Of a DNA stretch of 64,000 nt, positions 12,283 through 29,845 are shown piece after piece (position 1 is the stretch's first letter; each line of letters opens with the position of its first letter). A model generated the notes under the pieces. The model worked only from the letters and a program-made list of their open reading frames with translations. It had not been told where the DNA came from and searched no databases. The DNA comes from Pseudomonadota bacterium (GTDB lineage: Bacteria; Pseudomonadota; Gammaproteobacteria; Burkholderiales; JABEVD01), in contig JAJZRS010000003.1 in NCBI GenBank assembly GCA_021802545.1, forward strand, positions 10,284 through 74,283, read 5' to 3'. Position numbers and translations under genes: made by a program.

Positions 12283-12292
12283 GGTTTTCCCT

Positions 12293-13132: not shown

Positions 13133-13173
13133 TCAGTGCTTTCTGCAAAAATAGCATTATATATGTCGAAAAT

Positions 13174-13187: not shown

Positions 13188-13260
13188 CTTGACATCAAAT
13201 TTTCAAAATACTGCTTGAATATGTGTTGAGTGTGCCCTAGTGTTTTATTAGCATATTCTG

Positions 13261-13641
13261 ATGCTTCTGCGTCGCAAACGAGAAGGCAGTGAGATGCGCC
13301 CACTTCAACAACCCGTGTCGAATGCTTGCATAGACGACGTTGCTGCGCTGATGCTGGACGAACGCGGCATGATCCTCGATTGCAGCAAATCTGCGGAAGA
13401 ACTGCTCGGTTACTTGCGCAGCGAACTCGTATGGCGCCATGTCTCGCTGCTGGTGCCCCACTTCGAGAATAACACGATGATTTTGAACGGGAAGGTCAAT
13501 CCGCGGATACGGTACCTGTGTCATTGCGGCCATCTTTTCAAGGTGCGGGACAGGCAAGGCCAATCGTTTCTCAGCGAAATTCATCTGTTCGAACCGCAAA
13601 ACCAGGATCGGCGCACAGTGAGGCTGATTCTCTGCCATTAA
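13261..13641 (+). CDS. small single-domain PAS protein
   Basis: LDERGMILDCSKSAEELLGY..ELV is a PAS signature; alternative start ATG 13294. Confidence 0.7.
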   Translation: MLLRRKREGSEMRPLQQPVSNACIDDVAALMLDERGMILDCSKSAEELLGYLRSELVWRHVSLLVPHFENNTMILNGKVNPRIRYLCHCGHLFKVRDRQGQSFLSEIHLFEPQNQDRRTVRLILCH

Positions 13642-13666
13642 TTCCAAACAAGCTTGAGGGGTAAAC

Positions 13667-14569: not shown

Positions 14570-14619
14570 GCATTCAGGCAAACGGCATTGCGCTTATGGC
14601 ACATGCGGAACCGCCAATG

Positions 14620-14644
14620 AAAAAGGGCCTCGGATGAGGCCCTT
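14620..14644 (-). terminator. intrinsic terminator (native gyrB terminator, now displaced)
   Basis: AAGGGCCTC-GGAT-GAGGCCCTT stem, U-run on minus strand; lies just downstream of the gyrB stop once the element is removed. Confidence 0.75.
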
Positions 14645-14655
14645 GCATTTGCAAG

Positions 14656-14660
14656 AAGCA
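14656..14660. repeat. target site duplication, copy 1 (AAGCA)
   Basis: Immediately precedes TGT at 14661; identical to 27437-27441. Confidence 0.92.
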
Positions 14661-14794
14661 TGTAGGATCCCACATAAAGTGAAAAATCGATGCCTTACGG
14701 ATCAAGGCTTTTTTCATTTATTCCGAAGCGCTCCTAGGCTGCCAGTCCCACTTAACGTGAAAATTTCCTAACAGAATCCCAGATAAGGTGAAAA
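14661..14794 (+). repeat. gyrB-distal transposon end with three TnsB-type sites
   Basis: TGTAGGA then TCCCACATAAAGTGAAAA (14668-14685), TCCCACTTAACGTGAAAA (14746-14763), TCCCAGATAAGGTGAAAA (14777-14794). Confidence 0.85.
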
Positions 14795-14899
14795 CTTCCT
14801 ACAAATTTGCTGGCAGATTTTCCTCGCTGCTCATAACAGCTCCGTTGTTTGTCTTTTAGGCGAATAGATGTCTATTGGCTCGGGGGGCGATTCAATTCA

Positions 14900-15451
14900 T
14901 TATTCACTCTCGACCGATTTACTTACATATTTGCCACCAAGAAAGTTGCTTACTGTTGCATCCCCTCGTATTTCTGCCAGATGTAGCTTAGTATTTTTTC
15001 CTGATTTTATCGGTACAAATGTCTCCTTTCGTACCCCGTATCCGGCATGACCACCTTTAAATGATTCATTTAAAAATTTTGATTTGTAATCAAAATCGGG
15101 GACTATACGATTCTTTAGTATGTCCATGACCAATCCTATTGAAGCTTTAGCCTCAGCTAATACCATACTGGGGAGAGCCCGAGTCAGATCCTTAATCTCT
15201 TCCTTTAAACGCTCCCGATCATCATCGAAATCCAATTCGACCCGAGGAAAAGCGCCATTGAGGTCGGTCAGTAATTCTTGTTGTAAGATAGATATAATCT
15301 CCTCTTGTTGTTTGAAACGACCAGGGGTTTAAAGGCACGTTTGTGCCTTTAATTCTCCACAAAAAGTGGTCTTTACTAGTTTTATGATGGTTGCCTTGTT
15401 GGGCGCCAGGTCAGTCCAGCTGTCGCACACCGCTTTATAAGCGGAGCTCAT
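14900..15451 (-). pseudogene. hypothetical gene, possibly interrupted or truncated
   Basis: 111-aa ORF stays open upstream to TAA 15329-15331; an in-frame ATG at 15451 opens 40 further codons; no recognisable family. Confidence 0.3.
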
Positions 15452-15495
15452 TATGTCTAGAGGGTGGCTAGAAAGCCGGTCCGCAATTGAAACAT

Positions 15496-15942
15496 TTATC
15501 CCTCAGTTGGTTCGATTAACCAACCTCGTGATTGAGCAAGGAATTGAAGGCGCTCAAGGAGCTTTCGGAATACTTTTGGCGTTCCGTATTCTGGGGACGC
15601 AGTGATTAAGGCGTGGGCAAGATTATGTGGTTGTATTGGATCGGGTGTGACATCAATTGCGTGAGTTTGGATAGGGTTTCCTTTTGCATCATTTTGGATA
15701 ACAGTCGCCGTCGCACGGACATCAATTGTAACAACGCTGACAACACCATCCTTTTCTGACTTTTGTGTGTGGAAGGGATTAGTATTGCAAAGAACTGCAC
15801 GATCAACAGAAGGCTTAAATGACCGATCAGAAAAGGCTTGGGAGCTTAAGTGCCAAGATCCATCTGCATTCTTTTTACATTGGTTGTGCGCGAAGGAAAT
15901 ATTGCGAAACAATATTTCTTCATCACCAACACAATCTACCAA
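15496..15942 (-). CDS. hypothetical protein, putative ADP-ribosyltransferase/RES-like fold
   Basis: TTG start abuts the upstream stop; pattern LFR...AF...SVDR...DP...NxAHALI; fold call is inference. Confidence 0.55.
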   Translation of the reverse strand: MVDCVGDEEILFRNISFAHNQCKKNADGSWHLSSQAFSDRSFKPSVDRAVLCNTNPFHTQKSEKDGVVSVVTIDVRATATVIQNDAKGNPIQTHAIDVTPDPIQPHNLAHALITASPEYGTPKVFRKLLERLQFLAQSRGWLIEPTEG

Positions 15943-16446
15943 TTACACCTCCAACCAAGCCAGTAAGTGCGCGGTATTCTCTTCTGATACTTGACCATCT
16001 TCCATTTCATGATCAATGTCAGGTCCCCACACTTTAATGAAATCTAATTGCTCTTCGTTTACATATACGGTGAGCTTTTTTGTATTGTTCCACCATTCGA
16101 GCACGACCTCTCCATGAGGGCTTGCGGTTACATTTGGTTCGAGCCACTCAATGTCGATTTGGCGTGCTACGACATACATATTTCTGATTAAAGCAACTGC
16201 ACTTGCAATGCTTACTTGATTAATCGCAGCAGCCCCTGCCCCGTCCCAGTTCTCACCCCAGTTTTGCAAGGATCGAATTTTTTGGATCACTCTGTAGATT
16301 TGAAGTTCATTATCAGCAATAAACGTTTCGGGCTCTGGCTTGGATATGTTTTTAAGCAAACTACCCATTTCAGTAGCGCTAGGGGTGCGGTTGATCGGAA
16401 TTAACATTCCCCAATCATCATGGAGCGCTGCGCTAGCACTATACAT
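15943..16446 (-). CDS. hypothetical protein (NWDG motif)
   Basis: TAATG overlap with upstream gene; ENWDGAGA, PNVTASPHGEVVLEWW. Confidence 0.7.
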   Translation of the reverse strand: MYSASAALHDDWGMLIPINRTPSATEMGSLLKNISKPEPETFIADNELQIYRVIQKIRSLQNWGENWDGAGAAAINQVSIASAVALIRNMYVVARQIDIEWLEPNVTASPHGEVVLEWWNNTKKLTVYVNEEQLDFIKVWGPDIDHEMEDGQVSEENTAHLLAWLEV

Positions 16447-17192
16447 TACTGGATTAACTCCCTCGTCGTGTCGGTAACAAAGCTCTCAAACAACTCATTT
16501 TTTCGAATACGAAGTTGCTCCAAGGTATCCCAAACCTCAGTACTATTCGGCTGTATTGAGGTTATCTTGAATAAATCAATATCAAGCATAATAGAAAACC
16601 CACCCGGAATAACAGGGGCAACCACGGCCTCTTTTATAACCGCAGTACTGTTTAGATCTTCTTGGAACAAGTGTAGCTGCAAAAACATTCCGTTAACCAT
16701 TTGTGGTATGCCTGACGGAATATGCGGGTAAACGCTCAGGTAATCCTCAAGCTCTATTGGGCTAACAGGAATGTCAATTCGGTTAATGTATCGAACAGCG
16801 CACCTAGTGACTTTTTCGGGTTTGCAGTATTCAAGAAATCGCCCCCAATACTCGCGCGCGTCTTGACTAAAGTGTTCCCAGTCGGTGTATGGAGGAAGAT
16901 GACTGAAAGTGAGTCCTGTCTTTTTTAATTGCAGAACGCGGCTGTTGATCTCATCAGAAAGCCTAAATCCAAGTTTGTCACTAGAAGAAGATAAGTGATG
17001 CTTTTCGTCATCAGCATTACCGGTATCTAATTGCATTTGAATAGCAGTAATGTTGTTCCGGATTGGAAATTTGCCACCAAGGGAATCGGCGATTTCTGCC
17101 AGGCGACTTTCAGTAAACCCAGAAGGCAAAGCAACCTGAATATCTATGAGAGCTTCAATAATGGGGGCTTTAGAATAATGCCGCTTATCCAT
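16446..17192 (-). CDS. TIGR04255 family protein
   Basis: YSKAPIIEALIDIQ N-terminus, YTDWEHF, RCAVRYINRI, LDID, FESFVT. Confidence 0.8.
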   Translation of the reverse strand: MDKRHYSKAPIIEALIDIQVALPSGFTESRLAEIADSLGGKFPIRNNITAIQMQLDTGNADDEKHHLSSSSDKLGFRLSDEINSRVLQLKKTGLTFSHLPPYTDWEHFSQDAREYWGRFLEYCKPEKVTRCAVRYINRIDIPVSPIELEDYLSVYPHIPSGIPQMVNGMFLQLHLFQEDLNSTAVIKEAVVAPVIPGGFSIMLDIDLFKITSIQPNSTEVWDTLEQLRIRKNELFESFVTDTTRELIQ

Positions 17193-17271
17193 GGTGCCAT
17201 GCTGTCCGCAGGTTCATCTTTGTATTCTATGACGTGAATAATGGTTAGCGCAACACTACAACTCCATATGA

Positions 17272-19059
17272 CTAGAAATTCCGTTGATAAAGGTATTGTG
17301 CACACCCATCGATGTTTTTCCCACACACCGGCCTGATTCCTCGCTTCGCAAGCAATCTCATGGTGTGCGATGCCGAGGTACCAGCCGACTCTGCGAGATC
17401 CCGGCTAAGGACGTAATTGGTTCTGAATCGCAGAATTTCCGCTTGTGTGATCAAGGTCGCATTTGCCGATGCGCCCATTTTGACGGCCTTCAGAATTCCC
17501 TTTCGTACGAAGTGATAGGCGGCCTCCTGTTTGATACCGAGTTCCACCGCAACCTGGGGGATGGTCAGGGCGCCGTTCCTCGCCTGTTGGGTCTGTTCGC
17601 CACACCATGTTTTTAGGCGATCATGCTCGAATACCCAGCCAGGTATTCCGGGCTGACCGGGGGAAATGGCAACCGGCATGATTTCACGATTTTTTACGGC
17701 CCGTATCAGGGCAGGGAACAGAAAATCTTCCAGTAGCCAAAACCGTAGGGCGTGATCCATGCCGACTATCGTGGTCGAGATATCCTCAGGTGTCGGCATG
17801 CCTTCACCGATCGAGAGGATTTCTTTGATCGACTTCAATGAGATTCCCCATATGCCCCCGGTTTTTCGCAGTTCCGTGTAGGCGTGGACGACATGGGATT
17901 TCAGCAGTTGGGTCATCCTGGTTTTCTTGATGTTCAGGATGGCGGATGCTTTCGTATGATCGACCATGTCATCCAATATTTCCTGGATGCCAGGTAGAAA
18001 TGCGCGATCGATGCACATCATGCGCTTGTTCGATTCCATCCGCCGTACGTGTACGTTGATCATGCCCGCGTCATACATCGATTCGAGATGCTGGCGCGTA
18101 GTCCCAAGCTGCTTGGCGGCCTGGTTCAGCGGCAGCCATACACCGCTGGATACTCCTTCGGGGGAGATGCGCTTGTTGCGTCGGGTCAAGGGAACCAGCC
18201 AGTTGTTCGAAATGTGGCTCTCGAAGGCCTCGCGGATGAAATCGAATTTTTTGCTGCTCATGCGACTACTGAATACGTAGGAATAGAAAACCCCGTATTC
18301 CCTGGCAAGCAGTCTGTTGCCCTCTGGTGATGCATTGACTCTCCTGAGGTTGTCGAGCATCAGGTAGAAGTTTCCCGGCCAATGGGTGATGATTTCGGCG
18401 GCAATTTTGGTGAGTCTTGCTGCGACCTCGATGTTGGACAGGTTCAGGATCTTTTGCGACACCTTCACTTCATCAGCATGCCCAAAAGTTCCGAACGCAT
18501 GAGTCATTTGGCACAGCTGCTCAAGGTTGAGATGTCTCGTCAGGGAGATCGAGTGTGGCTTAGTTTCGTCGATCTTTGAAAGAATCGCCGCAGCGAGGCT
18601 GATTTCAGCACCATTCGCTTTGTCGGCGGTTGCGCCGACTAGATGCGCACCGCAATCGCAGGCAAGCAGGCTGCCGCGCTTCCAGGTAAGACGCTTGCCG
18701 CAGTCAGTGCATACTTCTACCAGGCGATTTCCGTGTTCAGGGCAAACGGTGAAATATTTGCACTCCCATTCGATTTTCCATGTCGGGGAGTTTTCCAAGC
18801 ATTGAGGGCAGTAACGGCTGTTGTGCAGGTTCCACGGCTGGATGTGGGCCAGCCAGGGTGATCGAAGCTGGGGGATGAGCTGCTTGAGTGGCCGCGAGGT
18901 GCTGAGCCCCAGCCATTGAACCAGCTGTCTGATCGAGATCTTATTTTGTCCCAGCAGAAAATTGATGCTGCCGTATCCATTACCCTCGGCCAGCCTGAAA
19001 AGATACCCCTGAAGTCCCTCCCCATAGGCGGGGAGGGGACGATACGGTAATTTGCTCAT
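17272..19059 (-). CDS. tniQ: TniQ/TnsD-family target selector with C-terminal HTH repeats
   Basis: PAYGEGLQGYLFRLAEGN N-terminus, CPQC..CPEH..CTDC..CDC Zn ligands; follows tnsC; RBS GAGGGGG. Confidence 0.88.
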   Translation of the reverse strand: MSKLPYRPLPAYGEGLQGYLFRLAEGNGYGSINFLLGQNKISIRQLVQWLGLSTSRPLKQLIPQLRSPWLAHIQPWNLHNSRYCPQCLENSPTWKIEWECKYFTVCPEHGNRLVEVCTDCGKRLTWKRGSLLACDCGAHLVGATADKANGAEISLAAAILSKIDETKPHSISLTRHLNLEQLCQMTHAFGTFGHADEVKVSQKILNLSNIEVAARLTKIAAEIITHWPGNFYLMLDNLRRVNASPEGNRLLAREYGVFYSYVFSSRMSSKKFDFIREAFESHISNNWLVPLTRRNKRISPEGVSSGVWLPLNQAAKQLGTTRQHLESMYDAGMINVHVRRMESNKRMMCIDRAFLPGIQEILDDMVDHTKASAILNIKKTRMTQLLKSHVVHAYTELRKTGGIWGISLKSIKEILSIGEGMPTPEDISTTIVGMDHALRFWLLEDFLFPALIRAVKNREIMPVAISPGQPGIPGWVFEHDRLKTWCGEQTQQARNGALTIPQVAVELGIKQEAAYHFVRKGILKAVKMGASANATLITQAEILRFRTNYVLSRDLAESAGTSASHTMRLLAKRGIRPVCGKNIDGCAQYLYQRNF

Positions 19060-19075
19060 GATCGCCCCCTCTGCT

Positions 19076-20041
19076 TCACGCTGCCTTGATTCGGCTTGTC
19101 CCCCAGGACGGGGCTGAGTTAATCAAAGCGAAGGGCTCGCCAGGGCGGTTCAGGTATCGAAGCTTATCCTGGTCGGCTGTGAACGGATTGAGTTCCCGTG
19201 GAGCCTCGCGCCACACTTCCTCCTCGAAGGCTTCAGCAAAACCAAGTTCGTCCAGGCGTGAGTAACCATGCCGGTGCGCCTGCATGACTGCGCCATCCAC
19301 GATCTTCCCGACATAATCGATCAAACCGTGGCTCGCGTAATGGAATCGCTGTGCGATTTCAGGGTGGCTCAACGAAATCGATGGCAGCGGCAGGCTTTTT
19401 TCGATGGCGCTTAAAAGCCCTCGAAACTGCTGGATTTCTCCGGGGCTGCTGAAGCCGAACGGCCGCAAGTAATGTCTCGAGGAGAAGCGCCTGGCGAGCT
19501 GCACGTTGAGGCGCAGTACCTGGTCGCTGTAGGGGAGGCCAATCAGCACCACGGGAATCCCGGCCTTGTTGAGCATGTTCTTGAGCCAGTCGGTGACGCG
19601 CCCAATCTCATGCCGCCGGCCATTCTCGAAGAACTGCTGGAACTCATCGATGATGATGAGTTCAACCCTGCACAGTTTGAGCAGATGATAGATGCGCTGC
19701 GTCTTCTGCTCGGCAGTACCCTTGTAGCTCAGCGAATCCCCTAGCTCGATCAGGAAGGCTTCTGCCAGGTTTTTTGCCGTTGGTGCGCTCGGCGTTTCAA
19801 CGCAAAGAACGGGTATCCTGGTCCTGTCGGATTCGCGCTGTTGCGGGTACCTGGCAGCATATTCCTTTTTGACCGTCGTTTTTCCCGATCCGGAATACCC
19901 TGTGATCAGCAGCCCGCCCGCGTAGCCTGAAGCCTTGGCCCGTTGGTGCAGTAGCTGGATCCTGTCCAAAGCGTCCAGGTGAATCGGGTACTGGATGGCC
20001 TGCTTGCGGCAGGAATAGTTCAGTAATGGGTTGGATGTCAT
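19076..20041 (-). CDS. tnsC: TnsC/TniB AAA+ ATPase
   Basis: Walker A GYSGSGKT, Walker B IIIDEFQ, QLARRF arginine finger. Confidence 0.9.
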   Translation of the reverse strand: MTSNPLLNYSCRKQAIQYPIHLDALDRIQLLHQRAKASGYAGGLLITGYSGSGKTTVKKEYAARYPQQRESDRTRIPVLCVETPSAPTAKNLAEAFLIELGDSLSYKGTAEQKTQRIYHLLKLCRVELIIIDEFQQFFENGRRHEIGRVTDWLKNMLNKAGIPVVLIGLPYSDQVLRLNVQLARRFSSRHYLRPFGFSSPGEIQQFRGLLSAIEKSLPLPSISLSHPEIAQRFHYASHGLIDYVGKIVDGAVMQAHRHGYSRLDELGFAEAFEEEVWREAPRELNPFTADQDKLRYLNRPGEPFALINSAPSWGTSRIKAA

Positions 20042-20050
20042 GTTTGCCTC

Positions 20051-22018
20051 CTAGTTGTGGCTACCGTAGAGCGTGTTCTTGCTCACAGAGAAGTCCGGGA
20101 GATCCTGATCGGCAATCACCGAAAGAACCGGCTGTACAGAGGGTTGGGGGAGGGCCGTGGATTTCGGGGTGAGGCCATCAGGGGTCACGCTGTCGATCTT
20201 GCGAAGCTTCGCAGCCTTTTTGCGCACGCCCATCTTCTTGTGCGCGACCGCAACGTCGATGATTGCCTGCAGCTGGCGCTTCTTCTCCAGAATCAGCGCT
20301 CGATCCATGTAGTCCTTCGCTTCGTTTCGTAGCGCCTGACGGACCAATTCATGCTGATCGAGGGTCAGCCCAACCGCGTATTCCTGGTCGATCGCGGGAA
20401 CCTTGAGATAGACCTTCTCATCGGGATCGAAGGCGTGAATGAAGGATATGTCATCCTCGTGATACTTCAACGCCAACTTGAGGTTGCTGCCATGACGGCG
20501 ATAAAGAGACTGAAGCTCGGGACAGTTGTACTTCAGTCCGTTTATCTCGATGCCATACCTGAATAGCGTCCGCTCGGCCGTATGCGCCGTGATGATCCAC
20601 AATTGCTCGGGATTGGATGGGTACTCAATCAGGCGTTCCCGCTCGCCTTTCTCCCACTTCAAGGCCGGAGGTATTCCGATTCCACGATGGATTTCCTGGT
20701 GGTAAATTTCCACGACCCATTTATACAGTAGGCCGAGGAGGGTTTTGAAACCGATGCATGCCATCGTCTCCGATTCATAATCGCCCCGTTCCCAGACGTT
20801 TGAAAATGTCGCGCCGGGCAAGCGATGGATCAGATCTTGGCTGATTGTCCTGAAGAACCGCTCGATCGAACCCTTGTACTCGGGGAGCTTCGCCGGACAG
20901 AACTGGATTTGGACATTGAGTTCCTGGCATGCCTTGATCAATGAATGCGAATGCAGCTCCATGCCGTTGTCGCAGACAATTACCTCAGGAATCCCTCTCG
21001 CAGGCCAAGGAAAGGTGATGTCTGGGTACTGCTTCAATAGCTCGTCTTTGGGAAGGATTGCCTGTCTGAGGCATTGCAGGACTGAATACGCTGACGGATT
21101 GCCGAAGCTTACAAAGATCCCCATGATCATCCGGCTGTTCTTGTCGAGAATGGCCGTCAACCACGGGCGCCCATGGGGCATTTTTGTCGCTTCATCGTAG
21201 ACGATGAAATCAAGCGGCGTGTGGTCGATCTCCCATCGTTCCAGGATGTGGTCAGCTTTCTGTACCCCAAGAACGGCTCTGAATTTTCTGTTTGCTGCTG
21301 GTCGACCAAGGCGTGCTGCATCTACCGCATATCTCTCGAGTTTATTCAGATATCGGTAGACCGTAGGTCTGGAAGGAATTCGATATATGTTTATTTTGTC
21401 CGGGTTTCGTCGTTGAAGCTCCAGGAGCTTCCTGCAGACTTCGTCATAAACAGCTTTCCCGGGATGCTTTTGTTGGTTGAGGTAAACTTGATCGATACTT
21501 TCGTCTATGACCGCGATAACTTCATTCGACCATGTGATTTTGCGCCCCTTGGATTCATGCCTATCTGCCAGATCGACTACACTTCGGGTTCTTCGATACC
21601 GGCGGTACCATCGATACACTGAAATTGGGCTGGGCGGCATTTGATCCCCAATTTCTTCAGCGATGGCGATGATTCGCTTCTTTAAGGCATCATGGGTCGA
21701 AACCAATTCATCTTCTTCAATCAGCAGCCGGTTAAGATAATCTTGTCGACGACATGCCCCTTCCTGTACTACCACGGGAAAAGATGCAAGGTCGCGCCGA
21801 ATTTTGCTCTCGATAATTGGGCCGTCAGCCTGGTCTTCTGGATTTATGCGCCATGATCCTTGGGCGCAGCCGACAAGAATTTCCGTTTCAGAAGCGTTGA
21901 TGATTTCCCCATCATCCGCTTCGAGCTGCAACGACCCATTCATCAGCCGACGCTCAATGGTGAGGATGCGTGCACCATGTTGAAAGCGTAGTCCCTTTTT
22001 AAACATGAAGCGCATCAT
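20051..22018 (-). CDS. tnsB: TnsB DDE transposase
   Basis: HTH domains, WEIDHT, VCDNG, KGSIERFF catalytic triad, Mu-like C-terminal barrel. Confidence 0.92.
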   Translation of the reverse strand: MMRFMFKKGLRFQHGARILTIERRLMNGSLQLEADDGEIINASETEILVGCAQGSWRINPEDQADGPIIESKIRRDLASFPVVVQEGACRRQDYLNRLLIEEDELVSTHDALKKRIIAIAEEIGDQMPPSPISVYRWYRRYRRTRSVVDLADRHESKGRKITWSNEVIAVIDESIDQVYLNQQKHPGKAVYDEVCRKLLELQRRNPDKINIYRIPSRPTVYRYLNKLERYAVDAARLGRPAANRKFRAVLGVQKADHILERWEIDHTPLDFIVYDEATKMPHGRPWLTAILDKNSRMIMGIFVSFGNPSAYSVLQCLRQAILPKDELLKQYPDITFPWPARGIPEVIVCDNGMELHSHSLIKACQELNVQIQFCPAKLPEYKGSIERFFRTISQDLIHRLPGATFSNVWERGDYESETMACIGFKTLLGLLYKWVVEIYHQEIHRGIGIPPALKWEKGERERLIEYPSNPEQLWIITAHTAERTLFRYGIEINGLKYNCPELQSLYRRHGSNLKLALKYHEDDISFIHAFDPDEKVYLKVPAIDQEYAVGLTLDQHELVRQALRNEAKDYMDRALILEKKRQLQAIIDVAVAHKKMGVRKKAAKLRKIDSVTPDGLTPKSTALPQPSVQPVLSVIADQDLPDFSVSKNTLYGSHN

Positions 22019-22641
22019 GGCTGTCTCCCTGGGAATTGGTAAGTGATTTCCGTTGTAATCGTGATGGGGGTGTCAAGGTTGCATGATATGTAGCCAGCAG
22101 CTAAAAGCCGCAGAACGATTTTCATATCACCCAAAACAAATGTCGCGCCTCCAACAGTTCTTGCAGGAAGCAACACTAATTGCTGCATTGCATCAAGCAA
22201 ATCCTGCTCGTCGTGGATCTTGGGAAGATGGTAAGCAAGGCGGCGGAGGTTTTTCAGACGAGTTTTCTTGCGGAGTTCGCGCTCCGTCAATATTTGGTAC
22301 CAGATATCGGTTTTTTCATCGTAGTGTTTCTTGATGGCGGCATAGCGTTCGGCGATCTCTGGCTTTTCGAGTTTCTTGGCGGGCTTCACCTCTATATGGC
22401 TGATTAACCCATCCGTAAATTCTGCTTCAAAATCGGGTATACAGTATTTGTTGGCGCCATTCATGCTAAAGGTTGTGCGAGTTGGTTGTGCTTTGTATCG
22501 CACCACTTCTCGAGAAAACTCCAGCAAAAGAATCGCGTCTCTTTCGAGGGTCGACTCCCAGGGAACCATTGCCCGCATTTTCCGTGAAGGGAAGTACCCC
22601 CTGATGCTCCGGCCTGAGCGTGTGACAACTTTACGTACCAT
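22015..22641 (-). CDS. tnsA: TnsA endonuclease
   Basis: GYFPSRKM, WESTLERD, PDF...IEVKP PD-(D/E)xK; ATG 22641 with RBS GAGGAG; ATGA overlap with tnsB. Confidence 0.88.
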   Translation of the reverse strand: MVRKVVTRSGRSIRGYFPSRKMRAMVPWESTLERDAILLLEFSREVVRYKAQPTRTTFSMNGANKYCIPDFEAEFTDGLISHIEVKPAKKLEKPEIAERYAAIKKHYDEKTDIWYQILTERELRKKTRLKNLRRLAYHLPKIHDEQDLLDAMQQLVLLPARTVGGATFVLGDMKIVLRLLAAGYISCNLDTPITITTEITYQFPGRQP

Positions 22642-22818
22642 GTCTCTTCTCCTCTGTTTTTCCAGAATCGGGGTAACAGTTACCCGCGACCCATAATTGA
22701 TGAATCGAATTTGCCAATTGTTGGGCATAAAAACGCCCCTTGCGGGTAATTTCGGCCGCAATTTGGCAAGGTGAATCCGGAATAGGGTTGACTGCCGGAG
22801 CGAGATGAGAGGATACTT

Positions 22819-22886
22819 CCGTTGTCTAGGCGGTTCTCACCAACGGTACAATGTACGGGGCAGGCCCTGTGTGGTTTGTCCTTTTA
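22819..22886 (+). ncRNA. candidate small RNA antisense to the XRE-tnsA spacer
   Basis: TTGACT(22788)-N18-GATACT(22812) promoter-like; stem CCGTTG/CAACGG; GU-rich terminator stem GGGGCAGGCC/GGTTTGTCCT then TTT that pairs only on the + strand. Confidence 0.4.
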
Positions 22887-23306
22887 CATTTGTGCCCCCT
22901 CTGGTAGTTTTTCAGGAATACCCCGGCTTTCGGCCGGGGCCGCTATATTCAATGACAGCACCTCGTTAATCATCCGGATCTGCGCCGGATGAAGACTGTC
23001 TATCTCACTCCAAAGTTTATGTATCATCCGATAAACATCTGTTGCCGTATCTTCTGGCAGCACATATCGTCGCTGAGACTCTTCCACTGCTTGAAGTAAC
23101 GCAGTTTGTTCGTTCTCATCGAGGCGTAGTGCCTGAATAAGCCTGGTAACGAATTCATCGTTTGGCGGTCCTTTTCGCCCTATCTCTAGTCCTGAAACAT
23201 AGGCTTGCTCATAGCCCATCAGGCTCGCCAATTTTTTCTGGCTAACCCGAAAACGTCTACGCAGATCATGAAAATACACTGAGAATGGACTCAAGGCGGA
23301 AACCAA
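22884..23306 (-). CDS. XRE-family HTH regulator
   Basis: SQKKLASLMGYEQAYVSGLEIG HTH; start may be TTG 23294 (MSPFS). Confidence 0.85.
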   Translation of the reverse strand: MVSALSPFSVYFHDLRRRFRVSQKKLASLMGYEQAYVSGLEIGRKGPPNDEFVTRLIQALRLDENEQTALLQAVEESQRRYVLPEDTATDVYRMIHKLWSEIDSLHPAQIRMINEVLSLNIAAPAESRGIPEKLPEGAQM

Positions 23307-23589
23307 TTTTTACTTGAAATTAATGCTTCCAATATAAGTCATCTTTCGGCAACGCACAAGCATAATATGCATAATAAACAGCAACATACGAACACTTATA
23401 CTTGAAGTGTAAATGTGCATGTTCGTGATTTTTGAATGTGGATCAGAGGGATATGTTAGGAAGAATTCTATTGGGAAATGATGCATTATTCAGCCGAGGC
23501 ATACGTCTCAAATCGGTCGCAACAGTCGGTCGTCTATGTTGGCTTTGGTGTCCGGTTGAGGTCACAAGTAGACATCTAACGACTAGAAC

Positions 23590-24108
23590 CTAGACCTGTC
23601 CGATTTGCCGCAATAGTTCTTCATTTTCTCGTCTTCGCTTGGCATTCAGATCTGGCTTTGACGGTATTGATGCAATGGATGCGACGTAGTCGGCCGGGAA
23701 GCCGTGATATCGCGCCCCTGCAATAACGAGTTCCTTGTACCAGTCGTAAGGGACTAGAGTCGAATCGATATGGGTGGATTGAGCGACATAGACATATGGG
23801 AGGTATGTTTTCCCATCAAGTTGCAACTGCATGAGTTGCTCTCTATATCCGTTGCCCGTCCCCTCTGCCTTATCAAGTGCGTTTTTTTCGCGGGCATCAA
23901 TCTCATAAAGGACGCCATGCATCTTATGGTGTTGCCCTTGCTCCGAGTAGATAAGGCACTTACCTGAACCATCGACGCTACGCTTGTGAAACGCCAGAAA
24001 AAACCCTGGTATTTCAACAACGCTGACAATGCGTGCCGAAGGTACCCGAGCAGTAAGCCTTAGTGGATGGAGATTGGAACCGTAAGCGAGATAGAAGACA
24101 GCGGGCAT
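23590..24108 (-). CDS. gamma-glutamylcyclotransferase (GGCT/AIG2-like) family protein
   Basis: YLAYGSNL, GVLYEI, LDKAEG, PYDWYK motifs. Confidence 0.85.
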   Translation of the reverse strand: MPAVFYLAYGSNLHPLRLTARVPSARIVSVVEIPGFFLAFHKRSVDGSGKCLIYSEQGQHHKMHGVLYEIDAREKNALDKAEGTGNGYREQLMQLQLDGKTYLPYVYVAQSTHIDSTLVPYDWYKELVIAGARYHGFPADYVASIASIPSKPDLNAKRRRENEELLRQIGQV

Positions 24109-24155
24109 GGCAGGTCTACCAGCGTCTAAAATCTAGGCAATATAGATCGGCAAGG

Positions 24156-25919
24156 TCACGGAAATTCATCAGCTTCGTCGTCAGCCATCTCATGGTTGTT
24201 TGGCCTATTAATGTGTTTGTCAATCTCAATATTGACCTGTCCAATGAATTCCTGAAGCTCTGCCCTTATTGGTTCGTACAGATCAGAACTAAGTAATCCG
24301 AACGGTTTTTCCAAAGTTACCTTGTTTCCGTTGATCGTCAGCCCAGGGTCCTCTTCAACCGTCAGTATGAGCTGCTGGTCGGTAGGGGTTCGATTGAGGA
24401 TGAATTTCAGAATCCGCTCAAGATTTTCCTTGTCCTGAGCCTGCTGATTCGGCGAGTCGACCACAATCGGGAAGAGCTTCCCATCACCCTTTTCCTTAGC
24501 CGTATGAATGATGGCGTATTGGTATGCCAATATCGCACGGGGAAGAGAACTGCCGGTTCCCTTCACTGTCGCGTCTGGGCGTTCTTTGATATCATCACCT
24601 AGCTCCTGCAACGATGACAGCTCAGAGCCGAATAACTGAATTCGTTCCGAGTAGTAATCATTGATGGCTTTCGCGCGCTCGGGTGCGTAGTACTGCGCCA
24701 CCTTGGCCTTCAATTCAACGATTTCGTCATCTCGGCGTTCGATGTTCTTCCGCAACGTCGCAATATCGCTGGAAAACACGGATCGCACGACTTCGGCGCT
24801 TTGACTTTCCACGACGTCTCGAAGCTTGAGGGATCCCTTCTTGGTTTGAAGTGCTTTCTCTATATCTCGTTCTCGATTCCTGAGTTGGCTAATCTTGGTT
24901 TGAACAGTGGTCAGTTCCTTTTCTACCTTTTGTAGGTCAGCTTCCAACTCAGCCGTGATCCCGCGCAGCGTCACTGCGTCCTCGACGAGCTCAAATCGCA
25001 CCGGGAAGGCATTTTCGTGCTCATCGCCGCATGTGGGACAAATTATTTTGCCATCCGGCTGTGTCTCGGTCAGATACTTCAGGTCGCCCTCAATCTCCCG
25101 GAGGGAGGTTTTGGCCATTTGAATCTGTGCGGTCAAAGACAGCTTTGCTGTACCAAGAGAGAAAGCTTTTGCCCGTAAAATCTCCTGATCCTTTTGTAAT
25201 GCCGAAGCATCCCGCAGGAGGTCATTTATTTCCTGTCGGAATACATTCTGATCGATATGGACTGATGCTTTCGGTAGAGCCTTTTTGACTCGATTCATGG
25301 CAGTCTGCACCGCACCGAGTTCTTGCTCCAGTTCCTTCCTTTCCGCTTTTGAACGCGACCAGTTCAACTTGGCCAGAAAGTATTCGTTTGGCCGCTGACC
25401 CGTTACATAGGAGATCAGCATTTTCTTCCACGCCCCGTGAAACTGCGACAGCTTATCAAAGGAGTTCCAGGCCTTCTGCCAGCCACCGTCCTGGTCGATG
25501 TAGTAGGGTAGAAAAAGGTAAGGAGGAGTCGCTTGCCGGAGTTGATCTTGGTGGGTCTGCAACTGCAACCGAAAGTCGAACAGGCTGGCGATGATGCCTG
25601 TCCAGTCCTTATAGCTTATCGTGGCCGTGATCTCGCCTATCTGTGTATTCTTCAGTGCATATGCATTTGCCCGCCGATACGCTAGATAGTCGATTCCGTC
25701 ACATTCAAACGACAAAACAGAAAGCGCCTGGGGGTCCCACTTATCTGACTTACCGAGGATCTCACACCCCAATGTCTGGAAGATGTGCTTCACCAGTGTC
25801 GACTTCCCCGTGCGATTCTTGCCGACCAGCAGTGTCATTTGTGGATGGAAGTTGATGCTGAATGCTTCCCTGCTTTGCTCTGATACAAGCCAGAGCTTTT
25901 TGTATCGCAAACGTTTCAT
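24156..25919 (-). CDS. lmuB: SMC/Rad50-like ATPase, Lamassu LmuB-type
   Basis: Walker A GKNRTGKS, YIDQD Q-loop, coiled coils with CPTC hook, GSSLPRAILAY signature, Walker B IVVDSP. Confidence 0.8.
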   Translation of the reverse strand: MKRLRYKKLWLVSEQSREAFSINFHPQMTLLVGKNRTGKSTLVKHIFQTLGCEILGKSDKWDPQALSVLSFECDGIDYLAYRRANAYALKNTQIGEITATISYKDWTGIIASLFDFRLQLQTHQDQLRQATPPYLFLPYYIDQDGGWQKAWNSFDKLSQFHGAWKKMLISYVTGQRPNEYFLAKLNWSRSKAERKELEQELGAVQTAMNRVKKALPKASVHIDQNVFRQEINDLLRDASALQKDQEILRAKAFSLGTAKLSLTAQIQMAKTSLREIEGDLKYLTETQPDGKIICPTCGDEHENAFPVRFELVEDAVTLRGITAELEADLQKVEKELTTVQTKISQLRNRERDIEKALQTKKGSLKLRDVVESQSAEVVRSVFSSDIATLRKNIERRDDEIVELKAKVAQYYAPERAKAINDYYSERIQLFGSELSSLQELGDDIKERPDATVKGTGSSLPRAILAYQYAIIHTAKEKGDGKLFPIVVDSPNQQAQDKENLERILKFILNRTPTDQQLILTVEEDPGLTINGNKVTLEKPFGLLSSDLYEPIRAELQEFIGQVNIEIDKHINRPNNHEMADDEADEFP

Positions 25920-25970
25920 GTTTGCCCTTTCTTAGATTTCTGGCCAGACGAATGGTGTTTGAAAGCTTGC

Positions 25971-27056
25971 TCATTTGTTGATGGCGTAAAGAATGATGGC
26001 CACGACATAGGGCTTGCCGAGGGTCGATATCGTGGCATTTGTTCTGGTCGATGCGGCTACTTGGTCGAGCATCCAGTGAGCAACATCCCAGGCCTTAGAA
26101 AGCCCTTCCGGGATTGATGCTCTGAGAATCTCGATTTCTCTCTCGATTGAATCGATAGTGCTATTGCTCTTGCCGGCACGCTCTATCAAATAGCGTCGAG
26201 CTAGTTCCTTGAACTGATTTCGGTCGGCCCAGGAAACGCCTTCCATAGCCAGCGAGTTATATATTGTCTCAACGATGTCGGCTGGAGCCTTTGAGTGAAG
26301 TACTGACGCAAGCATCGTCTTGAGTTCCGAAGCGCCGATACCTCGCGCCTTTTTCAGCTCGTCAAAGGAAGGAGCATCCTGGGTATTACCTGCTCGCTTG
26401 GATATTTCGAAATAAAGTTGCTGGCACAGAATGTCAGGACGGCAGCGGTGATCGGGAAACTTTTCGGCCAGATAATTGCCCACTTTGCCTGATGCATGGG
26501 TTGCTAGGTCGTCCAGTGCTAAGTCACTCTTTAGAAATCGCAGCGAGGTAAGGGAAAGCTCATTCGGTTCGCACTTGAGCTGCGTAGCCAGTGAGTTCCG
26601 CAATTCAAGCTTTAGGTCATCCGTCAGGATATCGGCATCAAACTCAGCCAGATTCTTAGAGTCTTTGCCGGAGACAAGGTCCAAAGAAATTGGAGCATTG
26701 CTGCCGAAGGCAACAGTGGCCTCATCTGGTTTGAACTGCCTATGCGATTCAAACAGCTTCCCAAGAACAGAATGCTCGCCCTCCTTGGGGGGATTGATTA
26801 ATCCCGCTTTCGTCCAGCTAGTGGAGCCAGCTTTCTTTTTCAGCTGGATGAGTTCTATGTGCCTCGGATTACTCTCCGAGTCCAGCACGGCTACATCCTC
26901 TACGTACTCGATCAGCAGGAGATAGTCATTTGTCTCCAGATCCAGTTTCAGCAAGTGGCAGAGCGCCCAATAGCGTTGAAAGTCATGACCTTTGCCACCA
27001 TGGCGCCCACCTTTCTCCTTGTCCAGAGCGTCGGTTAGAAGGTCAGTGAATGCCAT
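25971..27056 (-). CDS. lmuA: DUF4297/Cap4-like nuclease, Lamassu LmuA-type
   Basis: GG....G.DFQ..WA, IEYVEDV, IQLKKK PD-QxK nuclease motif; directly upstream of SMC gene. Confidence 0.78.
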   Translation of the reverse strand: MAFTDLLTDALDKEKGGRHGGKGHDFQRYWALCHLLKLDLETNDYLLLIEYVEDVAVLDSESNPRHIELIQLKKKAGSTSWTKAGLINPPKEGEHSVLGKLFESHRQFKPDEATVAFGSNAPISLDLVSGKDSKNLAEFDADILTDDLKLELRNSLATQLKCEPNELSLTSLRFLKSDLALDDLATHASGKVGNYLAEKFPDHRCRPDILCQQLYFEISKRAGNTQDAPSFDELKKARGIGASELKTMLASVLHSKAPADIVETIYNSLAMEGVSWADRNQFKELARRYLIERAGKSNSTIDSIEREIEILRASIPEGLSKAWDVAHWMLDQVAASTRTNATISTLGKPYVVAIILYAINK

Positions 27057-27337
27057 CGTTAAGTCTCAGCGAATGATTATTTTGGAGTGAATCCGAAACT
27101 CTTAAGCTTTGATATTTTATGGCTTTGCGCTTTTCTTTTTTTGTTTGTCAGGCACAAATCGTAGTATCTCATACGTTACAGACTGCTCTTCGCATTTTAG
27201 CACTGAGCACTGTCGCGTAAAGACATTTGTATAAGCCATCTATTCAGTCACTCGAAGTGACCACCGTCTGCAATTCGCTGCTTTGCGGACTTAGTGCGAA
27301 CGGCACCCTGGTGACCACTTTGGCCGACAGGAGGCTT

Positions 27338-27372
27338 CAAAACAAAAAGGCCTATTTATTAGGCCCTTTTGT
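27338..27372 (-). terminator. intrinsic terminator inside the transposon end
   Basis: Minus strand GGCCTA-ATAAA-TAGGCC then TTTTTGTTTT; T-run on the + side too. Confidence 0.75.
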
Positions 27373-27391
27373 CGATTGACCACCCCAAGTG

Positions 27392-27436
27392 TTTTCACAT
27401 ATATGAGATTCTTTTCATTTTATGTGAGAACCTACA
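27392..27436 (-). repeat. gyrB-proximal transposon end with two adjacent TnsB-type sites
   Basis: Reverse complement TGTAGGT-TCTCACATAAAATGAAAA-GAA-TCTCATATATGTGAAAA. Confidence 0.87.
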
Positions 27437-27441
27437 AAGCA
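27437..27441. repeat. target site duplication, copy 2 (AAGCA)
   Basis: Immediately follows ACA 27434-27436; 4 bp from gyrB stop at 27446-27448. Confidence 0.92.
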
Positions 27442-27445
27442 AGCC

Positions 27446-29845
<2,400 letters not shown>

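What the first reader, a model, noticed from the sequence alone, without database searches (positions are those of the whole stretch)
14656..27448. Complete CRISPR-less Tn7-like transposon inserted at the 3' end of gyrB
Seen: ends TGTAGGATCCCACATAAAGTGAAAA and (reverse complement) TGTAGGTTCTCACATAAAATGAAAA, a perfect AAGCA duplication, intact tnsABC-tniQ, and only 4 bp between the duplication and the gyrB stop. Removing the element rejoins gyrB to a terminator. The glmS att site in this window is empty. Known: Tn7-family TnsD proteins bind the conserved 3' end of a gene and insert just downstream. Sites I recall are glmS, yhiN, tRNAs, comM (another selector) and parE, a gyrB paralog; gyrB itself is not one I recognise. 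Inference: a gyrB-homing Tn7 lineage using an essential, origin-proximal safe site, apparently intact and possibly active.
Basis: partly seen in the sequence, partly recalled or inferred. Interest (0 to 1): 0.85.

Follow-up and report, generated by a model that had tools for sequence, protein, structure and literature searches.

The report
Tn7-like transposons that home to gyrB
This is an intact Tn7-type jumping gene carrying anti-phage genes, parked a few bases after the essential gyrB gene, and its relatives in dozens of other bacteria sit at the same spot, a homing site I did not find described in print.

Summary
A 12,776-bp element (14661-27436) has TGT...ACA ends, 22 of 25 terminal bases alike, a perfect AAGCA duplication, and lies 9 nt after the gyrB stop. 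It encodes HTH-TnsA-TnsB-TnsC-TniQ with catalytic motifs in place, plus a Lamassu defence pair.

- In 5 of 5 and 22 of 26 further gyrB 3' flanks from genomes holding related TniQ genes, a TGTAGG end starts 2-13 nt after the stop, R end always gyrB-proximal.
- Of 12 genomes found afterwards, 9 show an element end there.
- Five of 15 relatives tested have matching 5-bp duplications.
- One genome has two different elements stacked at the same nucleotide.
- A same-genus genome has an empty site.
- Contigs of three metagenome runs hold the precise empty junction beside the occupied one, and their depths add up to the flank depth. The element is therefore polymorphic and recently mobile.

No paper searched links Tn7-like elements to gyrB. 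The nearest described site is parE. Verdict: a real new att-site lineage of a known transposon kind.

The parts
14656..14660 (.). Target-site duplication, left copy (AAGCA)
   Evidence: Direct reading. Identical to 27437-27441. The empty-site joint has 5 ambiguous letters at exactly this place.
14661..14800 (+). Left end (L): terminal TGT and three spaced TnsB-site-like repeats at 14668-14685, 14746-14763 and 14777-14794
   Evidence: The spaced arrangement is like Tn7L (established knowledge of Tn7).
14900..16446 (-). Three ORFs of unknown function (14900-15235, 15496-15942, 15943-16446); L-side cargo
   Evidence: No Pfam, PADLOC or NCBIfam match. Whether they are real genes was not tested.
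16446..17192 (-). TIGR04255-family protein (248 aa); L-side cargo
   Evidence: NCBIfam E 1.5e-35, 123 bits against a cut-off of 30.
17272..19059 (-). tniQ (TnsD-like target selector, 595 aa): N-terminal TniQ zinc-finger domain, helical middle, C-terminal winged-helix/HTH_17 modules
   Evidence: Pfam TniQ 46.4 bits and HTH_17 33.4 bits. The zinc-finger Cys/His residues are invariant in 15 homologs. AF2 model has pLDDT 81. Best Foldseek matches are I-F3 TniQ (E 2.8e-7) and TnsD 8v32_J (E 1.5e-4).
19076..20041 (-). tnsC (TniB-type AAA+ regulator, 321 aa)
   Evidence: Pfam TniB 118 bits. Walker A (GYSGSGKT) and Walker B (IIIDEF) are read.
20051..22018 (-). tnsB (DDE transposase, 655 aa)
   Evidence: Pfam rve and Mu-transpos_C. 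Closest solved relative is the Tn6677 (I-F3) TnsB at E 7.9e-60, against Tn7 TnsB at 3.7e-17. D, D and E positions are conserved in the alignment.
22015..22761 (-). tnsA (endonuclease subunit, 248 aa; overlaps the tnsB start by 4 nt)
   Evidence: Pfam Tn7_TnsA-like_N at 24.8 bits, below the cut-off of 26.5. NCBIfam TnsA-like at E 7.6e-17, below cut-off. Aligned to a solved TnsA at E 7.2e-6 with the E...PD...E-x-K motif kept.
22884..23306 (-). Xre-type HTH protein (140 aa) just upstream of tnsA; a conserved core gene of this lineage and a probable regulator
   Evidence: Pfam HTH_31. A homolog stands directly upstream of tnsA in 17 of 32 genome loci and in many metagenome loci. The regulatory role is inferred.
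23590..24108 (-). AIG2/GGACT-like protein (172 aa); R-side cargo in the position where a Lamassu third gene could stand
   Evidence: Pfam AIG2_2 and GGACT. No PADLOC match.
24156..25919 (-). lmuB (SMC-like ATPase of a Lamassu defence system, 587 aa)
   Evidence: PADLOC LmuB E 2.6e-183.
25971..27056 (-). lmuA (Cap4-type nuclease effector of Lamassu, 361 aa)
   Evidence: Pfam Cap4_nuclease E 2.6e-36. PADLOC LmuA E 5.2e-70.
27349..27365 (-). Hairpin terminator just inside the right end. It replaces the gyrB terminator that the insertion displaced.
   Evidence: One search reported the hairpin on the + strand; the T-run on the gyrB strand is read. A like hairpin lies 47-127 nt inside the R end in 24 of 30 related ends, against a mean of 1.44 (maximum 5) in 100 shuffles.
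27391..27436 (-). Right end (R): terminal ...ACA and two adjacent TnsB-site-like repeats; the gyrB-proximal end
   Evidence: Packed sites are as in Tn7R (established knowledge). The R end faces gyrB in every relative mapped.
27437..27441 (.). Target-site duplication, right copy (AAGCA)
27446..29830 (-). gyrB. Its last ~48 nt are the presumed TniQ recognition sequence (att).
   Evidence: Pfam. First and second codon positions of the last 16 codons are at least 90% conserved across 32 occupied sites. Recognition by TniQ is inferred, not shown.
14623..14644 (-). Original gyrB terminator, now separated from gyrB by the element
   Evidence: 9-pair hairpin followed by a T-run. A matching hairpin follows gyrB at the empty site of same-genus genome G006.

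Best explanation
This is a complete, CRISPR-less Tn7-like transposon of a lineage that homes to the 3' end of gyrB.

Proposed mechanism:
1. The TnsD-like TniQ has a zinc-finger core plus a C-terminal array of winged-helix/HTH_17 modules. It binds the nearly invariant last codons of gyrB, which encode ...RR-FIE-NAL-A-N-D-V/I.
2. TniQ recruits the AAA+ protein TnsC.
3. The TnsA+TnsB heteromeric transposase then cuts out and pastes the element in one orientation, R end next to gyrB, a few bases past the stop codon. This makes a 5-bp duplication and leaves gyrB whole.
4. A terminator just inside the R end takes over termination of gyrB.
5. Cargo, here a Lamassu LmuA/LmuB anti-phage pair, rides mostly between the R end and the HTH-tnsA operon. 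It therefore sits next to the replication origin.

Shown: the anatomy, the site specificity across many hosts, the 5-bp duplications, and presence/absence polymorphism in a natural population.
Inferred: that TniQ is the protein that reads gyrB, where exactly it binds, and that this copy still moves.
For: Anatomy:
- Ends, duplication and gene set.
- Catalytic, Walker and zinc motifs.

Site specificity in genomes found through TniQ alone:
- gyrB lies upstream on the same strand in 5 of 5 records, with a TGTAGG end 3 nt (four cases) or 13 nt (one case) after the stop.
- 25 of 26 further genomes had a gyrB match. Of the 26 gyrB 3' flanks fetched, 22 start a TGTAGG-type end 2-11 nt after the stop. 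Three start another repeat-bearing end directly after the stop. One is empty: the second gyrB of a mixed bin.
- Contig lengths show that gyrB and the tns genes share a contig and a strand, 8-30 kb apart, in 13 of these. Coordinates show the same for three more.
- The closest relative (L101; TniQ 80%, TnsC 92%) sits 9 nt after the stop of a gyrB that is 86% identical. That is the window's offset, but the duplication sequence and the cargo differ.

Test on genomes found afterwards:
- 15 of 400 other genomes of the order match the TniQ profile.
- Of the 12 new ones, 8 have gyrB 4-24 kb upstream on the same strand.
- 9 show an element end 2-12 nt after the stop: 5 with TGTAGG and 4 with variant ends.

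Independent events:
- Matching 5-bp duplications of different sequence in 5 of 15 relatives tested.
- Two unlike elements stacked at the same nucleotide in one Chromobacterium genome, the newer one flanked by GATTC on both sides.
- Near-identical TniQ in a Zoogloea and a Pandoraea, which are different families.

Mobility:
- An empty site in same-genus genome G006.
- A joint from 14655 to 27437 that skips 12,781 nt, with 5 shared letters, in contigs of three runs. Flank depth is about element depth plus empty-site depth: 434 against 291-357 plus 103; 37.5 against 17.5-22 plus 20.3; 19-25 against 8-16 plus 10.2.

Target:
- Only the gyrB coding end is conserved across hosts; the sequence downstream is not.
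- The genome's own parE ends differently and is followed directly by parC.
Against: - No experiment links TniQ to gyrB DNA. Binding and the binding site are inferred by analogy with TnsD at glmS.
- The offset varies from 2 to 13 nt. The window and its closest relative use +9, while 18 of 30 mapped TGTAGG ends use +3. The geometry is therefore not uniform.
- Three of the 12 prospectively found genomes (G403, G128, G370) have an empty gyrB site, with their TniQ-like gene elsewhere. One paralog sits at msrB. Not every profile hit is a gyrB homer.
- Only 5 of 15 relatives gave a clean left end with a matching duplication. The others were unresolved, by contig ends, tandem elements or a search that was too strict.
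- The TniQ tree largely follows host families, so part of the distribution is vertical.
- The empty-site evidence comes from short unitigs (25 letters on each side) of three runs of a single study, possibly including the sample the window was assembled from. It shows polymorphism, not the direction or date of the event.
- The TnsA family hits are below the curated cut-offs.
Confidence: 0.88

Rival explanations
1. The link to gyrB is inherited synteny. One ancient insertion next to gyrB was passed down vertically, with no present site-specific homing.
For: The TniQ tree groups Chromobacteriaceae, Methylophilaceae and Azonexaceae rows as single clades. gyrB lies in a conserved dnaA-dnaN-gyrB block.
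Against: The distribution is patchy: 0 of 8 other genomes of the genus and 15 of 400 other genomes of the order match. Empty sites occur in a same-genus genome and within the same population. Offsets and duplication sequences differ between elements. Two unlike elements are stacked at one nucleotide. TniQ is near-identical across two host families.
Confidence: 0.03
2. The site is chosen by something other than TniQ reading the gyrB coding end. Candidates are the terminator or another DNA structure downstream, transcription or replication features near the origin, or a host factor.
For: Most empty and reconstructed sites have a hairpin terminator soon after gyrB. All sites are origin-proximal. 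TniQ binding was not tested.
Against: Sequence downstream of the stop is not conserved among hosts, while the last 48 coding nt are. Insertion is at a fixed distance of a few nt from the stop, in a fixed orientation, in dozens of hosts. A TniQ paralog goes with a different site, msrB. This fits selector-encoded specificity, as described for TnsD at glmS (PMC2918618, start of the abstract in a search listing).
Confidence: 0.07
3. This copy is a fixed, no longer mobile island. The empty junctions in the metagenomes come from co-existing older strains, not from recent movement.
For: Contigs cannot date the event or show excision. All three runs are from one study. Cut-and-paste Tn7 elements do not normally leave a precise empty donor site (established knowledge), so the empty allele is most simply the ancestral state.
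Against: All four core ORFs are full length with motifs intact. The ends are well kept. The flanking unitigs are shared without differences between the occupied and empty alleles in run X2 (tables 5 and 8), which argues for a recent gain or loss within one population.
Confidence: 0.2

Closest known systems
Prototypic Tn7 (TnsABC+TnsD homing to attTn7 downstream of glmS)
   Same: Heteromeric TnsA+TnsB transposase, TnsC, and a TniQ-domain selector. TGT/ACA ends with several TnsB sites, spaced at L and packed at R. 5-bp duplication. R end facing the target gene. Insertion just past the stop of an essential, conserved gene whose coding end serves as the address.
   Different: The target is gyrB, not glmS; glmS in this window is unoccupied. 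Insertion is 2-13 nt after the stop; my recollection, from no call, is about 25 bp for Tn7. There is no TnsE or second selector. TnsB is much closer to the I-F3/Tn6677 type (E 7.9e-60) than to Tn7 TnsB (3.7e-17). The TniQ C-terminus is built of winged-helix/HTH_17 modules. An Xre-type HTH gene precedes tnsA. Most cargo lies between the R end and tnsA.
Tn7-like elements with a parE attachment site (Acinetobacter and other Gammaproteobacteria; passages read in PMC11014353, and in preprint 10.1101/2020.07.02.184150)
   Same: CRISPR-less Tn7-like elements whose TniQ is thought to read the coding end of a type II topoisomerase B-subunit gene and insert downstream. parE is the paralog of gyrB.
   Different: The target here is gyrB itself. 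In this genome parE ends with an unrelated tail and is followed at once by parC, with no insertion. The parE-type TniQ is described as about 486 aa, against 595-650 aa here. Hosts are Betaproteobacteria. I did not compare the two selectors directly, so homology between them is untested.
Tn6677 / type I-F3 CRISPR-associated transposons and their CRISPR-less kin
   Same: Closest solved TnsB, TnsA and TniQ folds.
   Different: No cas genes and no CRISPR array. TniQ carries its own DNA-binding extension instead of docking on Cascade.
Tn6022 (comM) and other Tn7-like island builders
   Same: Site-specific Tn7-like elements that build islands of defence or resistance genes, sometimes in tandem.
   Different: Tn6022 inserts inside comM using TnsF, a tyrosine-recombinase-like selector (PMC10293859, passages). 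Here a TniQ-type selector is used and the target gene stays intact.

Membership tests
Tn7-like (heteromeric TnsA/TnsB) transposons | TnsA endonuclease subunit with a PD-(D/E)xK-type active site | tested here: met
   Alignment to a solved TnsA at E 7.2e-6, with E, PD and ExK positions kept. Pfam and NCBIfam hits exist but fall below the curated cut-offs.
Tn7-like (heteromeric TnsA/TnsB) transposons | TnsB DDE transposase (rve core plus Mu-type C-terminal domain) | tested here: met
   Pfam rve at 32.8 bits and Mu-transpos_C at 27.6 bits, both above cut-off. E 7.9e-60 to Tn6677 TnsB, with the D, D, E columns conserved.
Tn7-like (heteromeric TnsA/TnsB) transposons | TnsC/TniB AAA+ regulator with Walker A and B | tested here: met
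   Pfam TniB at 118 bits. Motifs read.
Tn7-like (heteromeric TnsA/TnsB) transposons | TniQ/TnsD-family target selector | tested here: met
   Pfam TniQ at 46.4 bits. Zinc-finger residues invariant. Fold matches TniQ and TnsD.
Tn7-like (heteromeric TnsA/TnsB) transposons | TGT...ACA termini with multiple sub-terminal transposase sites, and a 5-bp target duplication | tested here: met
   5-bp duplications also found in 5 of 15 relatives tested and in the stacked element.
Tn7-like (heteromeric TnsA/TnsB) transposons | Orientation-specific insertion at a fixed attachment site beside a conserved gene | tested here: met
   R end lies 2-13 nt after the gyrB stop in 5 of 5, in 22 of 26 (plus 3 variant ends), and in 9 of 12 gyrB flanks.
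Tn7-like (heteromeric TnsA/TnsB) transposons | Transposition activity that depends on TnsABC plus the selector | not testable with these tools
   Only indirect evidence: a presence/absence polymorphism in metagenome contigs.
parE-att Tn7-like group | Insertion downstream of parE | tested here: not met
   The element is downstream of gyrB (six gyrase Pfam domains including the GyrB insert). The genome's parE lies on another contig, unoccupied and followed by parC.
CRISPR-associated transposons (CAST) | Cas effector genes and a CRISPR array inside the element | tested here: not met
   No Cas family among 12 element ORFs. No tandem repeats. No Rfam match.
Tn5053/Tn402 family | TniA-TniB-TniQ without TnsA, plus a resolvase/res system | tested here: not met
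   A TnsA gene is present and overlaps tnsB. No resolvase was found among the ORFs.
Lamassu defence system (cargo) | LmuA effector nuclease next to an LmuB SMC-like ATPase | tested here: met
   PADLOC LmuA E 5.2e-70 and LmuB E 2.6e-183; the genes are adjacent and co-oriented.
Lamassu defence system (cargo) | Third component LmuC (in three-gene types) | tested here: inconclusive
   The next gene (23590-24108) is AIG2/GGACT-like and matches no PADLOC model.

The most novel reading that the evidence does not exclude
The 3' end of gyrB is an attachment site, not yet described, that several distinct Tn7-like lineages across the Betaproteobacteria use. They have different end sequences and TniQ proteins only 25-35% alike, and some stack in tandem. 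Together they build origin-proximal defence islands beside an essential gene. At least one member, this one, is still moving in a natural mine-drainage population. Its selector, a TniQ core fused to a string of winged-helix modules, reads the invariant codons of the GyrB tail. It could serve as a CRISPR-free, broad-host 'safe harbour' integration system.
Probability: 0.55. Interest if true: 0.7.

Novelty: new variant of a known kind. Interest (0 to 1): 0.62.

Why it matters
Tn7-type elements are the model for site-specific, harmless chromosomal integration. They are also the basis of widely used mini-Tn7 tools and of CRISPR-guided transposases.

- **A new address.** A natural lineage that homes to gyrB adds a site that is universal, essential and next to the replication origin, where gene dosage is high. 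Its selector architecture differs from TnsD.
- **A defence-island hotspot.** The space after gyrB appears to be a recurrent hotspot for defence genes in Betaproteobacteria. Cargo seen includes Lamassu, type I restriction, DNA methylase and Abi-like ATPases.
- **A natural experiment.** The occupied/empty polymorphism in one population gives a natural case for studying the gain and loss of such islands.
- **Selector evolution.** Together with the known parE site, it gives a paralog pair on which the evolution of selector specificity can be studied.

Tried and rejected
- The repeat finder did not report the terminal inverted repeat because the arms share no 9-nt exact seed. I relied on direct reading and pattern searches instead.
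- tblastn of gyrB against the first 32 loci found nothing. The 10-kb flanks stop short of the R ends, so searching the whole records was needed.
- The search for left ends and duplications succeeded in only 5 of 15 pairs. For element B of the tandem pair no left end was found before the contig end.
- G003 of the same genus has a lone R end but no tnsB or tniQ. It is either a remnant or an assembly gap, unresolved.
- No RNA holder was listed for the region, so nothing can be said about expression.
- Peters 2014 and Peters 2019 (Mol Microbiol) are not held, so I could not check whether they list gyrB.
- Literature searches for Tn7-like/TniQ/TnsD/TnsA together with gyrB or gyrase returned only resistance-genomics papers or uses of gyrB as a marker. 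In-paper searches found no gyrB site in PMC10293859, PMC8649781, PMC12452197 or PMC11014353. One search was swamped by attTn7 papers and is uninformative. Supplementary tables were closed, among them the element tables of PMC8649781 and PMC10293859, and they may list flanking genes.
- Plasmid search: only paralogs of about 26% identity, one of them broken by IS elements on a Pseudomonas megaplasmid. No plasmid route for this lineage was found.
- Rejected reading: a parE target.
- Rejected reading: a CAST.
- Not run: complex prediction, the search of protein representatives and the protein-atlas search.

Full report
**1. What is in the window**

- An element runs from 14661 (TGT...) to 27436 (...ACA).
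- Its 25-nt termini agree at 22 of 25 positions as inverted repeats.
- AAGCA flanks it on both sides (14656-14660 and 27437-27441).
- Four bases separate the right-hand copy from the stop codon of a minus-strand gene at 27446-29830.
- That gene is gyrB: six gyrase Pfam domains, including the GyrB insert and the C-terminal domain. It sits in a dnaA-dnaN-gyrB block.
- An 18-nt sub-terminal motif occurs four times in the 64-kb window, against 1.04 expected, and only at the element's ends. Three spaced copies lie at the end far from gyrB and one at the gyrB-proximal end, with a second adjacent copy carrying a 1-nt indel. This is the asymmetry of Tn7L and Tn7R.
- The repeat finder missed the terminal repeat because the arms share no 9-nt exact seed.

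**2. Genes of the element (all on the minus strand, read from gyrB inward)**

- LmuA, a Cap4-type nuclease, and LmuB, an SMC-like ATPase, form a Lamassu defence pair (PADLOC E 5.2e-70 and 2.6e-183).
- Next come an AIG2/GGACT-like gene and an Xre-type HTH gene.
- The core genes follow: tnsA, tnsB, tnsC and a 595-aa tniQ with a C-terminal HTH_17 domain.
- After tniQ come a TIGR04255-family gene and three unknown ORFs.
- TnsB aligns to the solved Tn6677 TnsB at E 7.9e-60 with its D, D, E columns kept.
- TnsA aligns to a solved TnsA with the E/PD/ExK motif kept, although its family hits fall below the curated cut-offs.
- TnsC has Walker A and B.
- The zinc-finger Cys/His residues of TniQ are invariant in 15 homologs.
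- There is no CRISPR array, no cas gene and no Rfam match.
- glmS in the window is followed after 41 nt by another gene, so that site is empty.

**3. Is gyrB the address? Relatives found through TniQ alone**

The protein is rare: 15 clusters, the query's own included, in the 5.8-billion-sequence collection. A scan of one genome per species with the TniQ alignment gave 32 loci, mostly from named Betaproteobacteria: Chromobacterium, Vogesella, Silvimonas, Azospira, Azonexus, Rhodocyclus, Zoogloea, Pandoraea, Paraburkholderia, Rugamonas, Methylotenera and others. TniQ identity to the window's protein is 25-35%.

These loci share an HTH-tnsA-tnsB-tnsC-tniQ core. Upstream of it lie defence-type genes such as type I restriction, C5 methylase, AAA_15/21 and IrrE. 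No gyrB lay within the 10-kb flanks, so I searched the whole records.
- In 5 of 5 records, gyrB ended 8-20 kb upstream of tnsA on the same strand. In all five a TGTAGG end begins 3 nt (four cases) or 13 nt (one case) after the stop.
- In 26 further genomes, 25 had a gyrB match. Of the 26 gyrB 3' flanks fetched, 22 begin a TGTAGG-type end 2-11 nt after the stop. Three (two Pandoraea and one Paraburkholderia, with a split tniQ) begin another repeat-bearing end directly after the stop. One is empty: the second gyrB of a mixed bin.
- Equal contig lengths prove that gyrB and the tns genes share a contig in 13 of these. Coordinates prove it in three more.
- In nine genomes gyrB lies on another contig, but that contig still shows an element end right after the stop.
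- Among the 30 mapped TGTAGG ends, 18 are at +3.

**4. The closest relative**

A metagenome scan found L101, with TniQ 80%, TnsC 92% and TnsB 73% identical. It lies beside a gyrB 86% identical in protein. Its R end starts 9 nt after the stop, the same offset as in the window. The 5 bases before it differ, and the cargo is different. It is therefore an independent insertion by the same sub-lineage.

**5. A test on genomes found afterwards**

Searching 400 other genomes of the same order with the profile gave 15 with E of at most 1e-30. Twelve of them I had not seen before.
- 8 of the 12 have gyrB 4-24 kb upstream on the same contig and strand.
- 9 of the 12 have an element end 2-12 nt after the gyrB stop: five with TGTAGG and four with variant termini that carry sub-terminal repeats.
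- 3 of the 12 (G403, G128, G370) have an unoccupied gyrB end, with their TniQ-like gene elsewhere.
- One paralog, 24% identical, in G040 sits in the 3' end of msrB, and its stop codon comes from the element terminus. Specificity therefore follows the selector clade.
- In a class-wide sample of 400 other genomes, the only full-length match was a genome of this same order.

**6. Independent events rather than inherited synteny**

- Five of the 15 relatives tested show a left end followed by the same 5 bases that precede the R end, and the sequence differs between hosts.
- In one Chromobacterium genome, a 17.9-kb element with its own HTH-tnsABC and two tniQ genes lies between gyrB and a second, unlike element. 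It is flanked on both sides by GATTC, and its left end abuts the other element's R end. Two lineages thus hit the same nucleotide in succession.
- The TniQ tree mostly follows host families. However, it places a Zoogloea and a Pandoraea protein almost identical to each other.
- None of the 8 other genomes of the window's genus has the tnsB or tniQ.
- One of them (G006) has an empty site, with a terminator hairpin like the one in the window's left flank. Another (G003) has a lone R end 6 nt after the stop.

**7. Is this copy mobile?**

Near-identical sequence occurs in three mine-drainage metagenome runs of one study. Laying their contigs on 13500-28500 gave the following.
- Contigs cover the whole element.
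- In each of the three runs, one contig joins 14655 to 27437. It skips 12,781 nt, with 5 letters shared by both sides. This is exactly the element plus one copy of the duplication.
- Contigs break 30 letters around 14660 and 27436, as expected for a branch in a 31-mer assembly graph.
- Depths add up. In X2 the flank is 434, against 291-357 for the element plus 103 for the empty joint. In X3 the flank is 37.5, against 17.5-22 plus 20.3. In X1 the flank is 19-25, against 8-16 plus 10.2.

The population therefore holds both alleles on otherwise identical flanks.

Caveats: the joint is carried by short unitigs (25 letters each side). The runs come from one study and may include the window's source. 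Contigs cannot tell gain from loss.

One loose end in X2 hints at a second gyrB allele with the same type of end 3 nt after its stop. It rests on a single contig and is weak evidence.

**8. How it most likely works**

By analogy with TnsD, which binds the conserved end of the glmS coding region (PMC2918618, start of the abstract seen in a search listing), the selector here would bind the last codons of gyrB.
- Across 32 occupied sites, only the first and second codon positions of the last 16 codons are conserved. The sequence after the stop is not.
- The AF2 model of TniQ (pLDDT 81) has an N-terminal zinc-finger TniQ domain and a helical domain, which match I-F3 TniQ (Foldseek E 2.8e-7) and TnsD (1.5e-4).
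- These are followed by four or five short winged-helix units, one of which matches an excisionase. Such an array could read some tens of base pairs.
- Binding, the recruitment of TnsC and the distance rule are inferred.

A further conserved feature is a hairpin terminator 47-127 nt inside the R end in 24 of 30 ends, against a mean of 1.44 and a maximum of 5 in 100 shuffles. It would replace the displaced gyrB terminator and shield the cargo from read-through.

Cargo lies between the R end and the HTH-tnsA operon in all members examined. In three of the five fully delimited relatives, the left end follows tniQ by about 200 nt.

**9. Comparison with what is known**

The element passes every sequence-level test for a Tn7-like transposon. 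It is not a CAST and not a Tn5053-type element.

The nearest described case is the parE attachment site of CRISPR-less Tn7-like elements in Acinetobacter and other Gammaproteobacteria (passages in PMC11014353, and in preprint 10.1101/2020.07.02.184150). parE is the paralog of gyrB. In this genome, however, parE ends with an unrelated tail, runs straight into parC, and is unoccupied.

I found no paper linking Tn7-like elements, TniQ, TnsD or TnsA to a gyrB site (searches; in-paper searches). Two reviews that might list it are not held, and supplementary tables were closed. 'Undescribed' therefore stays probable, not certain.

**10. Verdict**

One member is polymorphic in a natural population.

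It is a new variant of a well-known kind: a new address with a distinct selector architecture and cargo layout, not a new mechanism. For a specialist the surprise is moderate, since many att sites are known. The practical and evolutionary interest is real.

Noticed in passing
L158 (G067, Chromobacterium sinusclupearum) 1-18000; L011: Two different Tn7-like elements lie in tandem after gyrB. The gyrB-proximal one has its own HTH-tnsABC and two tniQ genes and a different end sequence. It is flanked by GATTC on both sides, and its left end abuts the R end of the older element.
   Followed up: yes
L100 (G040:C1) 3900-10720: A TniQ paralog (24% identity, also with HTH_17) belongs to an element inserted in the very 3' end of msrB. 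The msrB reading frame runs into the element terminus, which supplies the stop codon.
   Followed up: partly
L066 (G003:C163) 875-960: A same-genus genome has a lone R end (one good and one decayed transposase site) plus a terminator 6 nt after its gyrB stop, followed by ECF-sigma, YCII and DUF2934 genes. No tnsB or tniQ was found in that genome. It is either a remnant or an assembly gap.
   Followed up: partly
L094, L096, L087 (gyrB 3' flanks of G066, G030, G069): The terminal hexamer, or the first 8-9 bases of the R end, is doubled next to gyrB. These may be footprints of earlier insertions at the same site.
   Followed up: no
L099 (G000:C40) 3772-9848: The window's own genome holds a second transposon-like set: TnsB-like (657 aa), TniB and TniQ (529 aa), with no TnsA detected, followed by a Ser/Thr protein kinase gene. 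Its ends and target were not mapped.
   Followed up: partly
window 13667-14569 and G000 genome-wide: The sigma-70 family gene that flanks the element on the left has 7 DNA matches in this 2.77-Mb genome and several in each genus relative. That is an unusually large set of paralogs for a small genome.
   Followed up: no
L037 12104-14985; L140 13500-16250: Homologs of the LmuA/LmuB cargo pair (26-32% identity) lie just downstream of a different, short-TniQ transposon-like set in Thiobacillus denitrificans and in a metagenome contig.
   Followed up: no
L013 and L015 (Zoogloea sp. and Pandoraea captiosa): TniQ proteins of hosts from two different families are nearly identical (terminal branches about 0.05), which points to recent horizontal transfer of a gyrB-homing element.
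   Followed up: partly
window 27452 (run X2, table 7): One contig fits gyrB from 27452 onward but is preceded by another stop codon, 3 bases and the same type of element terminus. This hints at a second strain or species in the sample with a related element 3 nt after its gyrB stop.
   Followed up: no
L157 (G000:C32) around 151465: parE and parC are adjacent, with the parC start directly after the parE stop. A parE-downstream site would therefore not be a neutral place in this genome.
   Followed up: partly
L173 (NZ_CP026333.1, Pseudomonas megaplasmid) 11423-16917: A distant TniQ paralog (26% identity) with TnsA and a TnsB-like gene sits on a conjugative megaplasmid and is interrupted by IS21 and IS3 elements. 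No close relative of the window's selector was found on plasmids.
   Followed up: partly
G066 (record titled Candidatus Melainabacteria, L010/L094/L098): This bin has three gyrB matches at different identities. The contig carrying the element is probably proteobacterial, so the bin looks mixed.
   Followed up: no
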